Position numbers and translations under genes: made by a program. Of a stretch of 64,000 nucleotides of DNA, positions 21,097 through 38,700 are shown in pieces (position 1 is the first letter of the stretch; every line of letters starts with the position of its first letter). Source of the stretch: a virus (lineage: Duplodnaviria > Caudoviricetes); the IMG/VR virus record IMGVR_UViG_3300049988_000375, positions 1-64,000 of that record; one strand, written 5' to 3'. The notes beneath the pieces are model-generated. The model was given only the letters and a program-made list of their open reading frames with translations. It made no database searches and had not been told where the DNA came from.

Positions 21097-21609
21097 ATGG
21101 GACTCGATATTACCGCATACAGCGAGCTGTCTTACGCTCAACCGCAACCCAACGAGGACGATGCGGGCGACTTCGTTAATCTATACTCAACACATTACCA
21201 GCGACTGCTATCGCAGCAGGAGGGTTACTATACGCGTAATGGAGAGCGGGTTAATATTGCCTGTGGTAGCTATGGTCGCTATAGCCATTGGAGAGAGAGC
21301 CTCGCCCGCCTCGCCGGCTGGCCACTTGGCGAATACGAGCAATATGGTGCTATGCACCCATCTCATTGCGCCTCGGCATGGAAGGCTCAATCTGGCCCAT
21401 TTTGGGAGTTGATAAACTTTAGCGACTGCGATGGTAGCATTGGATTTGAGGTTAGCTCAAAACTTGCACAAGATTTTCAGCAGTATCGGCCAAGCATGGC
21501 ACAGCGGGCTACCCTTATGCAAGATGAGGGCTATTTTATGAAGAAATACGATGAGTGGGCAGCGGCCTTTGCCTTAGCCGCCCAAAATGGTGCCGTTAAG
21601 TTTCACTAA
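21097..21609 (+). CDS. Hypothetical non-structural phage protein
   Basis: MGLDITAY...GSYGRYSHWRESLA...FWELINFSDCDGSIG; ends at terminator. Confidence 0.8.
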   Translation: MGLDITAYSELSYAQPQPNEDDAGDFVNLYSTHYQRLLSQQEGYYTRNGERVNIACGSYGRYSHWRESLARLAGWPLGEYEQYGAMHPSHCASAWKAQSGPFWELINFSDCDGSIGFEVSSKLAQDFQQYRPSMAQRATLMQDEGYFMKKYDEWAAAFALAAQNGAVKFH

Positions 21610-21628
21610 AAGACCAGCACGCACTCGC

Positions 21629-21657
21629 AAGCCCCTGCCTAACGGTGGGGGCTTTTT
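21629..21657. terminator. Terminator between convergent genes
   Basis: aagcccc / ggggctt stem with T-run. Confidence 0.75.
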
Positions 21658-21661
21658 GCAT

Positions 21662-32775: not shown

Positions 32776-33281
32776 TGCACCTCACCGCCACCCCCTGCCC
32801 GCAAGCTGAATGGCCCGCCGCGATTGCCGCCGTATTTCGGGACGATACGCTGCTGCTCAACTACTACCACGTTGCCGCGCCCTGCGCGCTGGCGAGTGCC
32901 GTGGCTGATAGCTACTGCGCGCTGAAAGAGAATGCGGCGCCCGATTTTGTACTGTACGCTCTGCGCGAGCGCGGGCACCTGGTTGGCATGATAGGGGTGG
33001 AGCTGGAAAGCAACTGCCTCGTCACGTTCGGGCTGAACCGCTCGCACCGCACGGCCGAGGGCGTCACGGCACTGTCCCTAAAAATCCGTACCTTGCTAAA
33101 TGTCAGGCAGCCTATTTACTGCCTGCTGTACAAGCGCAACCAACCCGCCCGCAAGTTTCTGCGCCGCATGGGCTTCACGCCCTCGCACGCCCCGCTGACG
33201 CACCCAACCACCAGGCAAACCGTCTTTCTCTACACCCTTTACCCCGCTACCCGATGCCCGCAGGTGGATTCGCAACCATAG
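32775..33281 (+). CDS. GNAT-fold protein
   Basis: LVGMIGV...FGLNRSHR...YKRNQPARKFLRRMGF. Confidence 0.75.
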   Translation: MHLTATPCPQAEWPAAIAAVFRDDTLLLNYYHVAAPCALASAVADSYCALKENAAPDFVLYALRERGHLVGMIGVELESNCLVTFGLNRSHRTAEGVTALSLKIRTLLNVRQPIYCLLYKRNQPARKFLRRMGFTPSHAPLTHPTTRQTVFLYTLYPATRCPQVDSQP

Positions 33282-33940
33282 CCGCCCTCGGGGCCGTAAG
33301 CGCCGCCCCCAAACTACTCGCTTCCTGGAGCCAGAGCCGGGCGAGTCAGAAGCTCAAGCTGCAAGACACGCGCCCCGCCTCCTTTCTCGAAAAGCAGCAG
33401 CTCGCCCGCCAGGCGGCAGCAGCCGGTGCCCTGCCGGGCCAGGCGATGCAGCAAGCCCGCCTCGGCATGGTGCAGAACGGGGCGCTGCAAAGTGCCCGCC
33501 TCGGGGCGGCCAGCGGCAGTGACTTCCTGGCAAGCGCCGGGGCAGCCGATGCGCGCCGCATGAGTGGCGAGCAGCAGCTTGGCACGCAGTTCGGCCAGTA
33601 CACCGACCAGGCACGCCAGCGCCTCGGGCAAGTGCTCGACCAGGACGCTGCCTACCGCACCAAAGACCTCGACACCTTCAACCGCACGAAGGCAGCCCTC
33701 ACGCAGAGCGCGGCCGAAAACCTCGACAACGGGCTGGGTACGCTTGCCTCCTACGGGGCGCAGGGCGTGAACATGGGCCTTGCGAGCAAAGCCGCTGGGG
33801 CGATGGGTGGGGTGGGCGCCACTAGCCCCTATGCCTCGCCCTACGCGCCCGACCTCTACCCGCAAACGGGCGGCGCCTACTTGCCCGGCCAAGTAATGGG
33901 CCTGAACCGCCCGCGCTACAACTCACGCCTCGGCTACTAG
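33254..33940 (+). CDS. Small internal virion/ejection protein
   Basis: Gly/Ala/Gln-rich with hydrophobic N-terminus; follows muzzle and GNAT as in podoviruses. Confidence 0.6.
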   Translation: MPAGGFATIAALGAVSAAPKLLASWSQSRASQKLKLQDTRPASFLEKQQLARQAAAAGALPGQAMQQARLGMVQNGALQSARLGAASGSDFLASAGAADARRMSGEQQLGTQFGQYTDQARQRLGQVLDQDAAYRTKDLDTFNRTKAALTQSAAENLDNGLGTLASYGAQGVNMGLASKAAGAMGGVGATSPYASPYAPDLYPQTGGAYLPGQVMGLNRPRYNSRLGY

Positions 33941-34663: not shown

Positions 34664-34694
34664 TAAGCCCCTGCTACACAGTAGGGGCTTATTT
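34664..34694 (+). terminator. Intrinsic terminator
   Basis: taagcccct / aggggctta stem. Confidence 0.7.
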
Positions 34695-34740
34695 GTGCGG
34701 GCTTTGTAACTTGCTATCACACCCTCCCCGCCCGCAAGCT

Positions 34741-36495
34741 ATGAATGGCCAGATTGCCCCCAACGGCTTCAAAACCGTTGGCAACATCACCTACCTCTAC
34801 GTGTACCTGCCCCTCGACGGGCGCAGCCTCGTAGCCCGCAAACAGCCTTATTCGGGCGGGATGCTAATTGACTACGCCACCATTAAAAACGAGGACTTTG
34901 ACGCGGCACTGGCGGCGCCGGAAAAGCTCGAATACAAGCGCGGCACTGACCTCGACGCCAACCTAGGCGTACTGTTCAACCAACTCGGCACGGTGAACGC
35001 TGCCACGGGTGTTTCCAGTACCGTCACCGACCCGACCGACCGGCCGGGCCGACTGCTCGGGCACGTCACGGTGGATAACTTCCCAACTAACTGGACGGGC
35101 GGCAGCGCCACGGCGGGCGCCACCGACGTATCAGCCCTCGCTAAAGATGCGACGCTCACCGATGGCACGCAGAAGGCGCGGGTGACTAACTGGCCGGCTA
35201 CCCAACAAGTGGGCGGGTCGGTAGCGGTCAGCAACTTCCCCGCGCCCGTAACGTCGGTGAGCGTGTCAAACTTGCCCACCACGCAGGCAGTTAGCGGCAG
35301 CCTGAGCATAAATAACTTCCCGGCGCCCGTAACCAGCGTGCAGGTGTCTAATTTGCCCGCTACGCAGCCCGTGAGTGGGCCGCTGACCGATGGACAGCTT
35401 CGCAGCGCGCCCGTGGCCGTAGCGGGCGATTTTTACCCCGACACGCAGCAGGTCAGCATCGCGGTAATGCCCACCACGCCGGTAACGGGCAACTTCTACC
35501 CGGCCGTGCAAGCGGTGTCTGGCCCGCTGACGGATAGCCAACTCCGCGCTGCACCCGTGGCTGTCAATGGCACCGTGATTGTAGCGAACCCCACCAGCCC
35601 CACCGATGTATCGGCGCTGGCAAAGGACGCGACACTGACTAGCGGGGCGCAGAAAACACAGGTCACCAATACCGTGCCCGTCACTGGCCCCCTCACCGAC
35701 ACCCAGCTTCGGGCTACGGCCCTGCCAGTTGCCGGCGACTTCTACCCGGCTACGCAGGCAGTGAGCATCGCCACGATGCCGACTACGCCCGTGGTGGGCA
35801 CGTTCTGGCAGGCCACGCAGCCCGTTAGTGCCGCCAGCCTACCGTTGCCCGCTGGTGCAGCCACCGAAGCGACGCTGGCCGCCATAAAAGCCAAGACGGA
35901 CAATATCGACGTGCTGCTTTCGACGCGCACCAAGCCAGCCGACACGCAGAAAGTGGATGGGAGCGGGGTAACGCAGCCAGTGAGCGCGGCGGCCTTGCCC
36001 TTGCCAGCCGGGGCATCTACGGCGGCCCTGCAAACAAGCATGGGGGCGCAACTGGCTGCGCTTGTCACAAACTCCCCGACTCTGGTGAGCGGGCGGCTGC
36101 CCGTGGACATTGGCGGGGCTACCGTCACGGCCAGCTTCGCGCCCAAGACCAGCGGCGGCGTGTCGGGCAAGCTCACCCTGGCTAATGGCGTGTCAGCTAC
36201 CCCCACGGTGGTAAAGGCCACGGCCGGGCAAGTGTACCACCTGTTCGCGGGCAACACGTCCAGCTCGGCCGTGTACGTGAACCTCTACGACAAAGCCACT
36301 GCCCCCGCAGCCGGCGACACGCCGAAGGAAATGTACCTAGTGCCCGCTGGCGGGACGCTCAGCCGTGACTTCGTGCTGGGCAGTCAGTTCACCAACGGCA
36401 TTGGCCTCGCCATCACCTCGAACATCTCGCTGCTCGGCTCACTGACCGGCTTGCTAACGGCCAATGTGGTAATTGTGACCGTTCACTACGCCTAG
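34741..36495 (+). CDS. Repeat-rich fibre/spike-like virion protein
   Basis: Internal repeats NFPAPVTSV x2, GPLTD.QLR x3, DVSALAKDATLT x2, QPVSAA.LPLPAGA x2; beta-rich C-terminal domain. Confidence 0.7.
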   Translation: MNGQIAPNGFKTVGNITYLYVYLPLDGRSLVARKQPYSGGMLIDYATIKNEDFDAALAAPEKLEYKRGTDLDANLGVLFNQLGTVNAATGVSSTVTDPTDRPGRLLGHVTVDNFPTNWTGGSATAGATDVSALAKDATLTDGTQKARVTNWPATQQVGGSVAVSNFPAPVTSVSVSNLPTTQAVSGSLSINNFPAPVTSVQVSNLPATQPVSGPLTDGQLRSAPVAVAGDFYPDTQQVSIAVMPTTPVTGNFYPAVQAVSGPLTDSQLRAAPVAVNGTVIVANPTSPTDVSALAKDATLTSGAQKTQVTNTVPVTGPLTDTQLRATALPVAGDFYPATQAVSIATMPTTPVVGTFWQATQPVSAASLPLPAGAATEATLAAIKAKTDNIDVLLSTRTKPADTQKVDGSGVTQPVSAAALPLPAGASTAALQTSMGAQLAALVTNSPTLVSGRLPVDIGGATVTASFAPKTSGGVSGKLTLANGVSATPTVVKATAGQVYHLFAGNTSSSAVYVNLYDKATAPAAGDTPKEMYLVPAGGTLSRDFVLGSQFTNGIGLAITSNISLLGSLTGLLTANVVIVTVHYA

Positions 36496-36540
36496 ACCTT
36501 ACCACTTCGGTAAGGTTAGTTTACCGAAGTGGTAAGGTTT

Positions 36541-36615
36541 GCTGCGATTGTCCGAAAATAAAAGAGTGATTCGCTGCGATTGTCTTTATTATTTAAGAAA
36601 TATGCAGTACATTTG
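36541..36615 (+). promoter_or_regulatory. Three-box promoter D
   Basis: GCTGCGATTGTC at 36541 and 36573; ATGCAG abutting TACATTTG (36608). Confidence 0.8.
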
Positions 36616-36619
36616 TAAA

Positions 36620-36745
36620 AGAACACGAGGGCATTCGTGTTGCAGAGACATAACAAGTAGAACAAACCGGTCAGCCGGGATGGGCTCATCCCCCTGCTAC
36701 TTGCCAGCCCCCGCAACGGAATGCCCTCCGTTCGGGGGCTTTTTG
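36620..36745 (+). ncRNA. Putative ~125-nt structured small RNA with complementary loops
   Basis: Starts just after promoter D, ends in a terminator; stems 36622-28/36635-41, 36654-60/36697-703, 36677-82/36687-92, 36706-13/36733-40; no credible ORF. Confidence 0.65.
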
Positions 36746-37050
36746 TTGTACTGCGGTTCGCGCCATGAAACAACAACCGGCAATGAAAGCCCCATTTGGC
36801 CTGCTCATAGTCTTGTGAACCGTCTAGCGTGATGCCGAATCGGAGAGCATGGGGTAGGTGGAGGCAATGTGATGAGCTAGGGGACGCTTCACAAACTCCC
36901 TGTACACGGACAAGACGCACCGGCTCCGGAAGCATCTTCTTAGTGCAGCAGAAAAAACGCCTAACTCCGTAGCGGTAGCTAATGGGGGAAGGGGGCGCTT
37001 TTTCTGCTGTTCCGAACTTCAACAACACACTCTCCATAAGCAGTCTTGTT

Positions 37051-37377
37051 ATGATAACGGTTTGCAACAAGCACTACCACACAAAAACAGCCGCAGACCA
37101 ATACGTAGGACGAGGCAATGTGCTGGGCAACCCATTCACGCACAAAGCAGGCACCCTAGCAAAGTTCATTTGCAAAGACCGCGACGAGGCTGTGAATAGC
37201 TACCGTACCTACCTGCTCGAAAAGCTGGCCGCCAAAGACCCCGAAATCTGCGCTGAAATGAATCGGCTCTACAAGCTGGCAAAAGCTGGCGATTTGAATT
37301 TAGTGTGCTACTGCGCGCCTCAGCGCTGCCACGCTGACATTCTAAAGGAAGTACTCGAATCAAAAATTAATGGTTGA
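37051..37377 (+). CDS. DUF4326 protein
   Basis: YVGRGNVLGNPF...LVCYCAPQRCHADIL signature. Confidence 0.9.
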   Translation: MITVCNKHYHTKTAADQYVGRGNVLGNPFTHKAGTLAKFICKDRDEAVNSYRTYLLEKLAAKDPEICAEMNRLYKLAKAGDLNLVCYCAPQRCHADILKEVLESKING

Positions 37378-37425
37378 AGCGGAGCAAAGCGAGCATTCAA
37401 CAAAAACCTTTTAACCGATAGCAAA

Positions 37426-37647
37426 ATGATTGACCGATTGTTGAAAGAACTGCCCGAGGTTGATGTGGTGATTGTTCACATCGAAGGCGCGTATCAGCAA
37501 CTTGTTTATGGACTAAATGAGTGGCGCGAGCAAGGCGGCTGGCTCGGATTCCTAAAAAAGAATCATGTCTCTATCCGTCAGGTAAAAACAGAGCGGGCTA
37601 GAATGTCGGCTTTTGACTTTGCGAAAATGGGTGATTTTGCCGGTTGA
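37426..37647 (+). CDS. Hypothetical protein
   Basis: 73 aa in operon. Confidence 0.5.
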   Translation: MIDRLLKELPEVDVVIVHIEGAYQQLVYGLNEWREQGGWLGFLKKNHVSIRQVKTERARMSAFDFAKMGDFAG

Positions 37648-37928
37648 TTATGCCACACGAAACCTATTGGGCGCCCTACCCAGCCCTAATGTCGCGACTA
37701 GGATTTGAGCGGCAGTCGAGGTGCGGCCGGCAGTGGGTGAAGAAAAATCCTGACAACCCCGCTTCCCCCGATTTATTTATTGGGGAACTACCACGGCAGA
37801 CCCTGCCGAACTTTCCTGCAAAGAAGGCCCCTACATTGTTTTTAGGGGCGAATTGCAATCTGAGGAAGAACTTATTACTCTCTTACGACAAATCAGGTGG
37901 ACATGAGCAAGCCAATCGTATACATTGA
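37644..37928 (+). CDS. Hypothetical protein
   Basis: 94 aa in operon. Confidence 0.45.
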   Translation: MIMPHETYWAPYPALMSRLGFERQSRCGRQWVKKNPDNPASPDLFIGELPRQTLPNFPAKKAPTLFLGANCNLRKNLLLSYDKSGGHEQANRIH

Positions 37929-38700
37929 GCGCCACCCCGACGAACCGATGGGGGAGTGGGCACTTGCCGCGTGGCAAGGCTTTAAGTGGGATGGGTATGA
38001 AGTGCGCTTTGCCTTTCCCTTGCAAGAGGACTTGGCAAAGGGGAAAGGGGGCTGGAGTGGATATTACGACTACCCCACCGCTGAAATAATCCGCCTTATG
38101 CCCGACCGCCCATTTGTTGGGTCAGTCACTACTACTATGCGGCTTTTCCAGTACTGGAATCGGCAGGTGCCCAAGCCCCTGAACGTGCCCGATGAGCTGC
38201 TGGCCTTCGCGGGTCGGCCGATTGAGCGCCTGCGGCTGGAAGATGCGCTGCTGCGAATGGAGGCCGACCACCGCCCGCAGTTCATCAAGCCCGCCGACGA
38301 GGCCAAGCTGTTCACGGGTGGGGTCGTGGCAACGCCCGCGCACGTCGCCTTTCTCTTTGCCGACCTGCACCCCGACACGCCCGTACTGCTCTCTCCCGAG
38401 ATTAACCTGGTGACAGAATACCGGGTGTTCGTGAACCGTGACCGCGAGATTGCCGCCATGCGCCACTACTTGGGCGACCCCTTCGTGCGGCCGAGTAAGC
38501 TGTTCATTCGCAAGATGATTGACAGCTACACCGCCGCCCCGCGCTGCTATGCGCTCGACGTGGGTGTGACTGCCTCGGGCAAAACCGTTGTGGTCGAGTG
38601 CAACGACATGTGGGCCTTGGGGACATATGGAATGGACCCGGCAGCCTACTCTCGAATGCTGGCCCAGCGCTGGCACGAAATGATAACCAACCTTAAATAA
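37903..38700 (+). CDS. ATP-grasp domain protein (DUF4343/R2K-like)
   Basis: FVGSV, FIKP..KLFTG.V, EYRVFV, YALDVG...VVECND.W.LG.YG. Confidence 0.88.
   Translation: MSKPIVYIERHPDEPMGEWALAAWQGFKWDGYEVRFAFPLQEDLAKGKGGWSGYYDYPTAEIIRLMPDRPFVGSVTTTMRLFQYWNRQVPKPLNVPDELLAFAGRPIERLRLEDALLRMEADHRPQFIKPADEAKLFTGGVVATPAHVAFLFADLHPDTPVLLSPEINLVTEYRVFVNRDREIAAMRHYLGDPFVRPSKLFIRKMIDSYTAAPRCYALDVGVTASGKTVVVECNDMWALGTYGMDPAAYSRMLAQRWHEMITNLK

What the first reader, a model, noticed from the sequence alone, without database searches (positions are those of the whole stretch)
36620..36745. Small RNA whose first and last hairpin loops are perfectly complementary (kissing-loop/pRNA-like or attenuator)
Directly after promoter D, hairpin 1 is aacacga-[GGGCAT]-tcgtgtt. 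The hairpin capping the terminator is aacgga-[ATGCCC]-tccgtt. The 6-nt loops are exact complements, extendable to 10 bp (36627-36636 with 36719-36728). Between them caagtag/ctacttg encloses a gggatg/catccc hairpin. There is no credible ORF. Possibilities (inference): an intramolecular pseudoknot; hand-in-hand oligomerisation like phi29 prohead RNA; or a switch in which the 5' end remodels the terminator and controls read-through into the accessory operon.
Basis: partly seen in the sequence, partly recalled or inferred. Interest (0 to 1): 0.8.

Follow-up and report, generated by a model that had tools for sequence, protein, structure and literature searches.

The report
Kissing-loop terminator leader RNA in phage
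A temperate phage of a Hymenobacter-like host carries a ~125-base non-coding RNA. The tip of its first hairpin base-pairs with the tip of its own transcription-stop hairpin, and a distant relative keeps this pairing with different letters. It most likely gates read-through into the accessory genes behind it.

Summary
Hairpin 1 (36622-36641, loop GGGCAT) and the terminator's upper hairpin (36715-36732, loop ATGCCC) have exactly complementary loops. The match extends to 10 bp, and to 16 bp with one bulge (36627-36643 with 36713-36728).

A 10-bp long-range complement is not rare by itself in this 81-kb genome: 13 were seen and about 7 are expected. Three other results make it real:
- Contigs from two other studies match only 36619-36745, with 3 differences each, in otherwise unlike DNA. 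Five of the six differences lie in one tetraloop.
- A covariance model found a diverged homologue (L162, 46.8 bits). Its loops are GCGGAAT and ATTCCGC, again exact complements. They differ from the window by one compensatory change and a matched insertion. Seven further double changes keep the other helices.
- In both phages the long-range helix and the hairpin-plus-terminator fold differ by only 4-6 kcal/mol. Neither phage shows a recognisable promoter between the terminator and the next genes.

Best reading (about 0.5): a bistable terminator/antiterminator leader. The closest known system is the zipper-type attenuator of plasmid pLS20, here started by loop-loop contact. A stand-alone small RNA is the main rival. 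A phi29 pRNA-like role is unlikely.

No Rfam family matches. This scan has noted the same architecture in other phages on unrelated DNA.

The parts
36541..36615 (+). Three-box promoter cassette ('promoter D'). It holds boxes GCTGCGATTGTC at 36541 and 36573, an inverted box ending in GCAGTA, and the -7 box TAcaTTTG at 36608-36615.
   Evidence: Eight copies of the same architecture occur in the 81-kb genome. This is the only TAnnTTTG on the + strand between 34 and 41 kb.
36620..36745 (+). The whole RNA unit, from the predicted transcription start (about 36620) to the end of the terminator U-run.
   Evidence: Contigs of two other studies match 36619/36626-36745 with 3 differences each, and both flanks are unlike. 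The covariance-model match in L162 spans the full length.
36622..36641 (+). Hairpin 1 (P1): a 7-bp stem AACACGA/TCGTGTT with loop GGGCAT at 36629-36634. It is weak, at -7.7 kcal/mol.
   Evidence: In L162 the closing pair changes from A-U to G-C and the loop becomes GCGGAAT.
36637..36652 (+). GTGTTGCAGAGACATA: the 3' end of hairpin 1 plus a single-stranded linker. It is identical in the window and in the otherwise diverged L162 homologue.
   Evidence: No complementary site of 9 nt or more exists elsewhere in either phage sequence.
36654..36703 (+). Central domain P2: CAAGTAG/CTACTTG enclosing two inner hairpins. These are CCGG[TCAG]CCGG at 36667-36678 and GGGATG/CATCCC at 36677-36692, which share two G.
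   Evidence: The outer P2 helix keeps pairing in L162 with 2 double changes and 1 single change. The tetraloop 36671-36674 reads TCAG, CTTG or GCAA in the three near-identical copies. The CCGG hairpin is absent in L162.
36706..36745 (+). Intrinsic terminator. The lower stem is 36706-36713 with 36733-36740, with C36714 bulged. The upper stem is 36715-36720 with 36727-36732. The loop is ATGCCC at 36721-36726, followed by TTTTTG.
   Evidence: -20.9 kcal/mol. Four double compensatory changes in L162 keep the pairing.
36627..36643 (+). 5' strand of the long-range (kissing / antiterminator) helix. It covers the loop and 3' arm of hairpin 1 plus GC.
   Evidence: It pairs with 36713-36728 as 16 bp with one bulge; the duplex is -25.2 kcal/mol. 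The forced fold is -45.7 against an MFE of -51.6. This helix is the MFE for transcripts ending at 36724-36736.
36713..36728 (+). 3' strand of the long-range helix. It covers the 5' arm, the loop and the first two 3'-arm bases of the terminator's upper hairpin.
   Evidence: In L162 the core is 11 contiguous Watson-Crick pairs. Three pairs changed on both sides and one C-G pair was inserted.

Best explanation
The stretch is a promoter-proximal, non-coding leader RNA module of a temperate crAss-like/Bacteroidota phage whose host is probably Hymenobacter.

Transcription starts about 5 nt after the -7 box of promoter D. The RNA first forms a weak 5' hairpin, then a central hairpin domain, then a strong intrinsic terminator.

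The loop and 3' arm of the 5' hairpin are complementary to the 5' arm and loop of the terminator. The RNA therefore has two mutually exclusive folds of similar stability:
- OFF: 5' hairpin plus terminator. Transcription stops and leaves a ~125-nt RNA.
- ON: a long-range helix that encloses the central domain and sequesters the terminator's 5' arm. Transcription reads through into the accessory operon, which runs from 36982 or 37051 to about 40640.

Contact between the two fully complementary loops (6-7 bp) is inferred to start the exchange. Whatever stabilises or melts the 5' hairpin would set the outcome. Candidates are a protein or RNA binding the invariant 5' arm and linker, or the speed of RNA polymerase.

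What is shown: the anatomy, the conservation boundaries, the covariation, and the energy balance in two homologues.

What is inferred: the transcription start, termination itself, and the switch with its trigger.
For: 1. The unit is conserved as an island. Contigs from two other studies (X3, X4) match 36619/36626-36745 with 3 differences each, while both flanks fall below 80% likeness. Five of the six differences lie in one tetraloop, 36671-74.
2. A diverged homologue exists at L162:14482-14595(-), 46.8 bits, E about 1e-7. It has its own TAtcTTTG box and a T-run terminator.
3. All 34 pairs, including 7 loop-loop pairs, are standard pairs in both sequences. Eight pairs changed on both sides. 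Controls with the 3' partner slid by 1-3 columns give 0-1. In the loop-loop helix, C-G became A-U and a C-G pair was inserted at matching places. The closing pairs of both hairpins changed together from A-U to G-C, which also keeps the long-range pairs. The model that found L162 carries no information on the loop-loop pairing.
4. The energy balance is conserved. Window: -51.6 (terminator fold) against -45.7 (long-range fold). L162: -47.7 against -43.2. In both, the long-range helix is the MFE until the last few bases of the terminator stem are made.
5. No TAnnTT box lies on the + strand between 36700 and 37830. In L162 none lies between the terminator and the next gene on that strand. In both phages the downstream genes are on the same strand.
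6. The architecture matches an experimentally shown mechanism, the zipper-type attenuator cATTpLS20. That has a weak upstream stem-loop, a central stem-loop and a terminator. The 3' strand of the first is complementary to the 5' strand and loop of the last, and the energies are similar (PMC13401043).
Against: - There is only one diverged homologue, so the covariation rests on two independent sequences plus two near-identical copies.
- There are no RNA data of any kind.
- The terminator is strong (14 bp, G+C-rich, U5). The 5' hairpin forms first, so the default could be near-complete termination and a stand-alone small RNA.
- In X3/X4 the DNA after 36745 is unrelated to the window's. A portable sRNA gene would show this just as well.
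- The first ORF starts 240-300 nt after the terminator, against 0-26 nt in the pLS20 family.
- The long-range helix is separated from the central helix by an internal loop of about 10 x 9 nt, so it is not a contiguous 'zipper'.
- A relative (X2) has the same downstream region behind a plain terminator without this RNA.
- Promoters that differ from the TAnnTTTG pattern would have been missed.
Confidence: 0.5

Rival explanations
1. It is a stand-alone, trans-acting small RNA gene, a 'moron' with its own promoter and terminator. The loop-loop pairing is a static intramolecular tertiary contact (kissing loops or pseudoknot). It compacts or stabilises the RNA and presents the invariant single-stranded linker GCAGAGACAUA to a host or phage partner.
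For: - Conservation boundaries coincide with the transcript boundaries, and the downstream flank differs in X3/X4.
- The terminator is strong.
- A 16-nt stretch including the linker is identical between diverged homologues.
- The unit sits right after the tail-fibre gene, a usual place for accessory insertions.
- Fully paired 6-7-nt kissing loops are known from other RNAs (own knowledge: TAR-TAR*, ColE1 RNA I/II).
Against: - No complementary target of 9 nt or more for the linker exists in either phage, and no loop target in the phage. Host targets were not tested.
- The complementarity runs beyond the loops into the stems, and the closing pairs changed in concert. A pure loop-loop contact does not need that.
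- The downstream genes have no recognisable promoter in two phages.
- An intramolecular kiss would need the 13-14-nt linkers almost fully stretched (own estimate).
Confidence: 0.25
2. It is a leader-derived regulatory RNA that acts in trans on nascent copies of the same leader, in the manner of P4 CI or P1/P7 c4. The terminated ~125-nt RNA would kiss the complementary loop of a newly made transcript. That would promote or prevent termination, giving feedback or a timer.
For: - Each molecule carries both a loop and its complement, so any two copies can pair.
- The phage is temperate, with a CI-like repressor and an integrase.
- Earlier notes of this scan raised the same analogy. These notes are leads only.
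Against: - No match to Rfam C4 or any other family.
- No additional target copies of either loop sequence exist elsewhere in the genome. P4 and P1 have separate target sites.
- The promoter is the cassette shared with late and structural operons rather than an immunity promoter.
- Nothing shows processing.
Confidence: 0.1
The two loops would pair between molecules to build a ring used in virion assembly or DNA packaging.
For: Two loops of one RNA are complementary and covary, which was the classical signature of pRNA (own knowledge). The unit lies at the end of the structural gene block.
Against: - No match to the Rfam pRNA model.
- The phage encodes an ordinary large terminase and portal.
- The RNA is absent at this place in relative X2. 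It was not found within 10 kb of the giant-protein gene in relatives L182-L185. It sits at a different genomic place in L162. It is therefore accessory.
- Its 3' hairpin is a terminator.
Confidence: 0.04
4. The pairing has no RNA-level function. The complement would be a DNA-level inverted repeat, such as a protein-binding site pair or a recombination scar, or simply chance.
For: Ten-base inverted pairs at this spacing are expected about 7 times in the genome by chance. The lower terminator stem is a generic design reused elsewhere in the phage.
Against: - The apical 10-11 nt stay exactly complementary in both homologues, while the stems below them differ from each other (ACACGA against ACGGA; ACACGG against AAAAGG). 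Gene conversion of a repeat would not give that pattern.
- The 10-mers occur nowhere else in the genome.
- The conserved unit is bounded by a promoter and a U-run terminator in three contexts.
Confidence: 0.08

Closest known systems
Zipper-type transcription attenuator cATTpLS20 of Bacillus conjugative plasmid pLS20 and relatives (Gonzalez-Alvarez et al., Nucleic Acids Res 2026, PMC13401043)
   Same: - Same order of parts in a 5' leader: a weak upstream stem-loop (-6.4 kcal/mol there, -7.7 here), a central stem-loop, then an intrinsic terminator.
- The 3' strand of the upstream stem-loop is complementary to the 5' strand and loop of the terminator. This gives an antiterminator that excludes both.
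- The two folds have similar free energy.
- The 5' arm of the upstream stem-loop is highly conserved.
   Different: - No sequence relationship is expected, and none was tested.
- The setting is a phage of Bacteroidota rather than Gram-positive plasmids.
- Here the whole loop of the upstream hairpin takes part, so the two loops are exact complements (kissing).
- The long-range helix is separated from the central helix by a large internal loop instead of extending it directly.
- The first gene lies 240-300 nt after the terminator rather than 0-26 nt.
- No ConAn antitermination genes were noted downstream (not searched for).
- Function is untested here.
P4 CI RNA (seqB with seqA/seqC) and P1/P7 c4 antisense RNA (Rfam C4)
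   Same: These are short phage RNAs made from the start of an operon. Their loops pair with complementary sequences of the same transcription unit and control premature termination or translation (own knowledge).
   Different: - No Rfam C4 match.
- Here the two complementary elements lie within one 125-nt unit ended by its own terminator.
- No further target copies exist.
- There is no evidence of processing, and the promoter is not an immunity promoter.
phi29-family prohead RNA (pRNA)
   Same: Two loops of one small phage RNA are complementary, and the complementarity covaries between relatives.
   Different: - No Rfam match.
- The fold differs: three hairpins with a terminator.
- The RNA is accessory and moves between genome positions in relatives.
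- The phage has a conventional terminase.
Kissing-loop antisense systems and long-distance kissing loops (ColE1 RNA I/II, R1 CopA/CopT, pAD1 par RNA I/II terminator loops; 5'-3' kissing in tombusvirus and luteovirus RNAs)
   Same: Fully complementary 6-7-nt hairpin loops act as the nucleation point for RNA-RNA pairing. In pAD1 the terminator loop is the contact point (own knowledge).
   Different: Those pair two different transcripts, or the ends of an mRNA, for replication or translation control. Here both loops are in one short transcript and one of them caps its own terminator.

Membership tests
Zipper-type attenuator (cATTpLS20-like) | Lies in the 5' leader between a promoter and the first gene of an operon on the same strand | tested here: met
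   The -7 box is at 36608-15. The following genes are on the + strand from 36982 or 37051. L162 has the same layout. The spacer to the first ORF is 240-300 nt, longer than in the pLS20 family.
Zipper-type attenuator (cATTpLS20-like) | Weak upstream stem-loop, central stem-loop and intrinsic terminator, in this order | tested here: met
   -7.7, -13.6 and -20.9 kcal/mol. L162 folds the same way.
Zipper-type attenuator (cATTpLS20-like) | The 3' strand of the upstream stem-loop is complementary to the 5' strand and loop of the terminator, giving a fold that excludes both | tested here: met
   36627-36643 pairs with 36713-36728. An 11-bp core plus 5 further pairs occur in L162.
Zipper-type attenuator (cATTpLS20-like) | The antiterminator is a direct extension of the central stem (the 'zipper') | tested here: inconclusive
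   In the predicted long-range fold, an internal loop of about 10 x 9 nt separates the central helix from the long-range helix.
Zipper-type attenuator (cATTpLS20-like) | Terminator and antiterminator folds have similar free energy | tested here: met
   -51.6 against -45.7 kcal/mol in the window; -47.7 against -43.2 in L162.
Zipper-type attenuator (cATTpLS20-like) | Measured termination and read-through that respond to mutations in the complementary strands | not testable with these tools
   This needs in vitro transcription or reporter assays.
P1/P7 c4 and P4 CI immunity RNAs | Match to the curated C4 model, or separate target sites (a2/b2, seqA/seqC) elsewhere in the operon | tested here: not met
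   No Rfam match at the gathering score or at E up to 10. Neither loop sequence recurs in the genome.
phi29-type prohead RNA | Match to the Rfam pRNA model | tested here: not met
   No Rfam match.
phi29-type prohead RNA | Essential and present in all relatives | tested here: not met
   Absent at this place in X2. Not found in L182-L185. At a different position in L162.
phi29-type prohead RNA | phi29-type packaging system | tested here: not met
   The phage has a large terminase and a portal of another type.
Any Rfam 15 family | Score at or above the family's gathering threshold | tested here: not met
   0 matches in the 64-kb window. The best sub-threshold scores are 18 bits, against cut-offs of 39-50.

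The most novel reading that the evidence does not exclude
The unit is a portable, self-contained RNA gate that phages move between genomes and promoters. A 5' hairpin kisses and then strand-invades its own terminator. The arbitrary but matched loop letters act as an 'address'. That address would also let the terminated 125-nt RNA talk to nascent copies, as a feedback or timer. If the look-alike architectures noted elsewhere in this scan work the same way, this would be a widespread and so far uncatalogued class of phage transcription control spanning several bacterial phyla.
Probability: 0.2. Interest if true: 0.8.

Novelty: new variant of a known kind. Interest (0 to 1): 0.56.

Why it matters
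RNA-level regulation in phages of Bacteroidota is almost unstudied, and no curated RNA family covers this element.

If the switch works as proposed, it extends a mechanism shown only in 2026 for Gram-positive conjugative plasmids. That mechanism is a weak upstream hairpin competing with a terminator through a long-range helix. The extension would be to a temperate phage of another phylum, and it adds a new feature: fully complementary loops that can start the exchange.

It would also explain how accessory genes behind the tail-fibre gene are kept silent or switched on without a promoter of their own.

The element is small, has clear boundaries, and makes sharp predictions for compensatory mutants. 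That makes it an easy test case.

Tried and rejected
**Searches for further homologues that found nothing**
- blastn against phage records.
- Exact or degenerate pattern scans of viral contigs, genome contigs and metagenome contigs.
- BLAST of the window RNA and of the L162 RNA against 274 Hymenobacteraceae genomes. The only hits were short and at chance level.
- Models R1 and R2 against 151 of those genomes.
- A 17-mer with up to 2 mismatches gave as many hits as the reversed control.
- R1/R2 over loci from relatives gave only L162.

**Anchors that did not lead to syntenic loci**
- Tail-fibre relatives proved to be a promiscuous domain spread across many phyla.
- The terminase had no close relatives in the viral contigs.
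- The ATP-grasp homologues and the 228-aa protein homologues sit in other contexts.
- For one giant-protein relative no DNA was available.

**Attempts to reach the X3/X4 contigs**
- I searched for a spurious ORF across the RNA. This returned only the window's own mis-called ORF.
- Whole-record searches of metagenome loci are not possible.
- Relatives cannot be drawn for a virus record.

**Expression:** no RNA holder was listed among the sequencing runs, so nothing can be said either way.

**Other checks that came up empty**
- tRNA/tmRNA scan: none.
- Target search in the phage for the loops and the linker: nothing above chance.
- The RNAcofold dimer was more stable than two monomers only through the palindromic middle hairpin, which is uninformative.
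- The weak model hit at window 21517-21658 is an ordinary terminator with the same lower stem.
- The downstream 300 nt as one structured RNA: z = -0.35, not supported. Its alignment with L162 is poor.
- Literature searches for a described Hymenobacter-phage sRNA or a kissing-loop terminator found nothing specific.

Full report
**What is in the sequence**

The window is the first 64 kb of an 81,353-bp IMG/VR 'provirus' record. The stretch lies in a 490-bp gap after the 600-aa tail-fibre gene, whose stop is at 36495.

In order, the gap holds:
- an inverted pair of iteron-like repeats (36497-36537);
- one copy of the phage's repeated three-box promoter cassette, which ends in a Bacteroidota-type -7 box, TAcaTTTG at 36608-36615;
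- the unit in question.

- Hairpin 1 is AACACGA[GGGCAT]TCGTGTT at 36622-36641.
- The central helix is CAAGTAG/CTACTTG (36654-60 with 36697-703), with inner hairpins.
- The terminator is 14 bp, G+C-rich, at 36706-36740. Its upper part is AACGGA[ATGCCC]TCCGTT, followed by TTTTTG.

The loops are exact complements, and 36627-36636 pairs with 36719-36728. I also found that after one bulged G the pairing continues, 36638-36643 with 36713-36718. This gives a 16-bp helix of -25.2 kcal/mol.

RNAfold returns the three-hairpin fold at -52.6 kcal/mol, z = -3.6.

There is no credible ORF:
- The frames open across the unit differ between the window and its homologue.
- The 184-aa minus-strand ORF has a junk-like composition.
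- It nevertheless sits in public protein collections as a called gene.

**Is it more than chance?**

Taken alone, no. Ten-base inverted pairs at 60-110 nt spacing occur 13 times in this genome, against 6.7 in Markov simulations.

The placement is what is unusual. A genome-wide scan for an upstream hairpin whose loop complements the loop of a T-run-followed hairpin finds this locus with 10 nt. Everything else it finds is a 6-nt match between marginal 5-bp hairpins. The real evidence comes from other DNA.

**Evidence from other samples**

The DNA comes from a leaf metagenome (run X1, probably the source).

In two other studies, contigs match only 36619/36626-36745. These are a plant metagenome (X3, a 15.3-kb contig) and a viral metagenome (X4). 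Each has three differences, and the sequence on both sides is unlike the window at the 80% threshold.
- The upstream loose ends carry a different promoter with a TAtaTTTG box at the same distance.
- The match stops at the end of the terminator's U-run.
- The conserved island therefore coincides with the predicted transcript.
- Five of the six differences lie in the tetraloop 36671-36674, which reads TCAG, CTTG or GCAA. The flanking CCGG/CCGG stem is untouched. The rest, including both complementary loops, is invariant.

A third relative (X2, air metagenome) has the window's downstream region 36735-37046 at about 87%. It sits behind a different, plain terminator hairpin, without this RNA.

**A diverged homologue**

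No collection scan or BLAST found more copies (see Tried and rejected).

A covariance model built from the window and the two variants (A1, R1) was run over loci fetched through neighbouring proteins. It hit L162:14482-14595(-) at 46.8 bits, E about 1e-7, over its full length. L162 is part of an 83.6-kb JGI metagenome contig of a related phage. The two phages share the giant 2,000-aa protein, the iterons and a 228-aa protein.

The homologue has:
- its own TAtcTTTG box;
- hairpin 1, AACACGG[GCGGAAT]CCGTGTT;
- an identical 16-nt stretch, GTGTTGCAGAGACATA;
- a shorter central domain;
- a terminator whose upper hairpin is AAAAGG[ATTCCGC]CCTTTT, followed by TTTTT.

GCGGAAT and ATTCCGC are again exact complements, but differ from GGGCAT and ATGCCC. 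One pair changed from C-G to A-U, and one C-G pair was inserted at matching places in the two loops.

Counted on the model alignment with the loop-loop helix written as a pseudoknot:
- all 34 pairs are standard pairs in both sequences;
- 8 pairs changed on both sides (1 in hairpin 1, 1 in the loop-loop helix, 2 in the central helix, 4 in the terminator);
- versions with the 3' partner slid by 1-3 columns give 0-1.

The model that found L162 has no knowledge of the loop-loop pairing, so this is independent support.

The closing pairs of both hairpins also changed together from A-U to G-C. This keeps the long-range pairs 36628-36727 and 36635-36720 as well.

The limitation is that this is one diverged sequence. 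A conservative chance estimate for the two new loop pairs alone is about 1 in 16.

**Host and phage**

- The terminase and portal resemble those of Flavobacterium and Cellulophaga podophages at 27% identity.
- The promoters are of the Bacteroidota TAnnTTTG type.
- Homologues of a neighbouring protein are named Hymenobacter.
- The samples are leaf, air and plant.
- The right end carries a CI-like repressor and an integrase.

The phage is therefore temperate and probably infects Hymenobacter.

The RNA was not found in 274 Hymenobacteraceae genomes by BLAST, nor in the 151 of them searched with the models. As far as seen, it is a phage element rather than a host gene.

**How it most likely works**

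The complementarity is more than a loop-loop contact. It covers the loop and 3' arm of hairpin 1, and the 5' arm and loop of the terminator. Two mutually exclusive folds therefore exist.

| Sequence | Terminator fold | Long-range fold |
|---|---|---|
| Window | -51.6 kcal/mol | -45.7 kcal/mol |
| L162 | -47.7 kcal/mol | -43.2 kcal/mol |

When growing transcripts are folded, the long-range helix is the minimum-energy structure from the moment the terminator loop is made. It stays so until the last few bases of the terminator stem appear. This covers 36724-36736 in the window and 94-109 nt in L162.

In the window there is no TAnnTT box on the + strand between 36700 and 37830. In L162 there is none between the terminator and the next gene. 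In both phages the genes behind the unit seem to depend on transcription that passes this terminator.

This is the logic of a transcription attenuator. It matches closely the zipper-type attenuator shown experimentally in 2026 for plasmid pLS20 (PMC13401043):
- a weak upstream stem-loop, a central stem-loop and a terminator;
- the 3' strand of the first complementary to the 5' strand and loop of the last;
- similar energies for the two folds;
- the antiterminator formed by default;
- termination favoured when the upstream stem-loop is stabilised.

I read the paper myself.

Differences here:
- The whole upstream loop takes part, so the two loops can kiss.
- The long-range helix is separated from the central helix by a large internal loop.
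- The first ORF is 240-300 nt away.
- The setting is a phage of another phylum.

I put this reading at about 0.5.

**Rivals**

- *A stand-alone small RNA whose loops form a static internal kiss (0.25).* This fits the island-like conservation, the strong terminator, the invariant single-stranded linker and the unrelated downstream DNA in X3/X4. I found no target in the phage. It does not explain the complementarity in the stems.
- *A P4 CI / P1 c4-like RNA acting in trans on nascent leaders (0.1).* This is possible, since each molecule carries both partners. There is no Rfam C4 match and there are no separate target sites.
- *A phi29 pRNA-like ring (0.04).* This is unlikely. The RNA is accessory, it moves between genome positions in relatives, and the phage has a conventional terminase.
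- *A DNA-level repeat or chance (0.08).* This fits poorly. The apical 10-11 nt stay complementary while the stems beneath them differ from each other in both phages.

**Novelty and verdict**

- No Rfam 15 family matches, and I found no paper describing it.
- The mechanism class is known, so I rate it a new variant of a known kind.
- This scan has already noted the same architecture in other phages on unrelated DNA: a 5' hairpin loop complementary to a terminator loop, with covariation. I could not check those notes, and they are not used as evidence.
Function is untested.

Noticed in passing
window 36746-37046: About 300 nt of apparently non-coding DNA lie between the terminator and the first ORF. 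A relative (run X2) keeps it at about 87%, with seven single-base gaps, behind a different terminator and without the RNA. There it joins directly to the ATP-grasp gene, skipping 37046-37951. It ends in a 16-bp hairpin (36946-61 with 36994-37009). The overall fold is not better than shuffles (z = -0.35). The alignment with L162 is poor apart from short blocks (ACAAGACGCA, GCAGTCTT).
   Followed up: partly
window 37019-37081: A 63-nt island around the probable true start of the DUF4326-like gene (ATG at 37051) recurs in a 2.2-kb contig of run X4, with 3 differences and 1 gap, and unlike flanks. It may be a second small conserved regulatory or recombination module.
   Followed up: no
window 36671-36674: The tetraloop of the CCGG/CCGG mini-hairpin reads TCAG, CTTG or GCAA in three otherwise near-identical copies. 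The whole mini-hairpin is missing in L162. It is a hypervariable, dispensable tip inside an otherwise frozen RNA.
   Followed up: partly
window 13672, 20664, 24676, 36541/36573, 62785 (+); genome 69289 and 74103 (-): A repeated promoter cassette: GCTGCGATTGTC, a second CTGCRA box about 32 nt on, then an inverted box ending in GCAGTA that runs into a TAnnTT(T/G)N -7 box. It looks like the regulon of one phage regulator. The copy before the RNA has an imperfect third box.
   Followed up: partly
window 36497-36537 and genome 72323-72453: An inverted pair of the unit CCTTACCACTTCGGTAAGG lies next to promoter D. It matches an array 36 kb away, and a similar array is present in L162 (13053-13120, 84%).
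   Followed up: no
window 36516-37070 (-): A 173-aa ORF on the opposite strand, covering the RNA and the leader, is on record in public protein collections as a predicted protein (P0011). Its composition is junk-like and it has no relatives, so it is probably a mis-call.
   Followed up: yes
window 33254-33940: The 228-aa protein sits among the tail genes, but its homologues (45-68% identity) lie in unrelated contexts. One is a Hymenobacter sp. chromosome next to an S24 peptidase gene and integrase-bearing islands. It looks like a mobile accessory gene rather than a tail part.
   Followed up: partly
window 34693-36495: The central part of the tail-fibre protein (residues ~120-580) has relatives at 30-70% identity in viral contigs and in genomes of many phyla (Pseudomonadota, Cyanobacteria, Acidobacteriota and others). 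It is a promiscuous fibre domain and useless for naming the host.
   Followed up: partly
window 37897-38700: An ATP-grasp protein (Pfam R2K_3/R2K_2) in the accessory operon has 44-75% identical homologues in a different group of phages with many small genes (L156-L161).
   Followed up: partly
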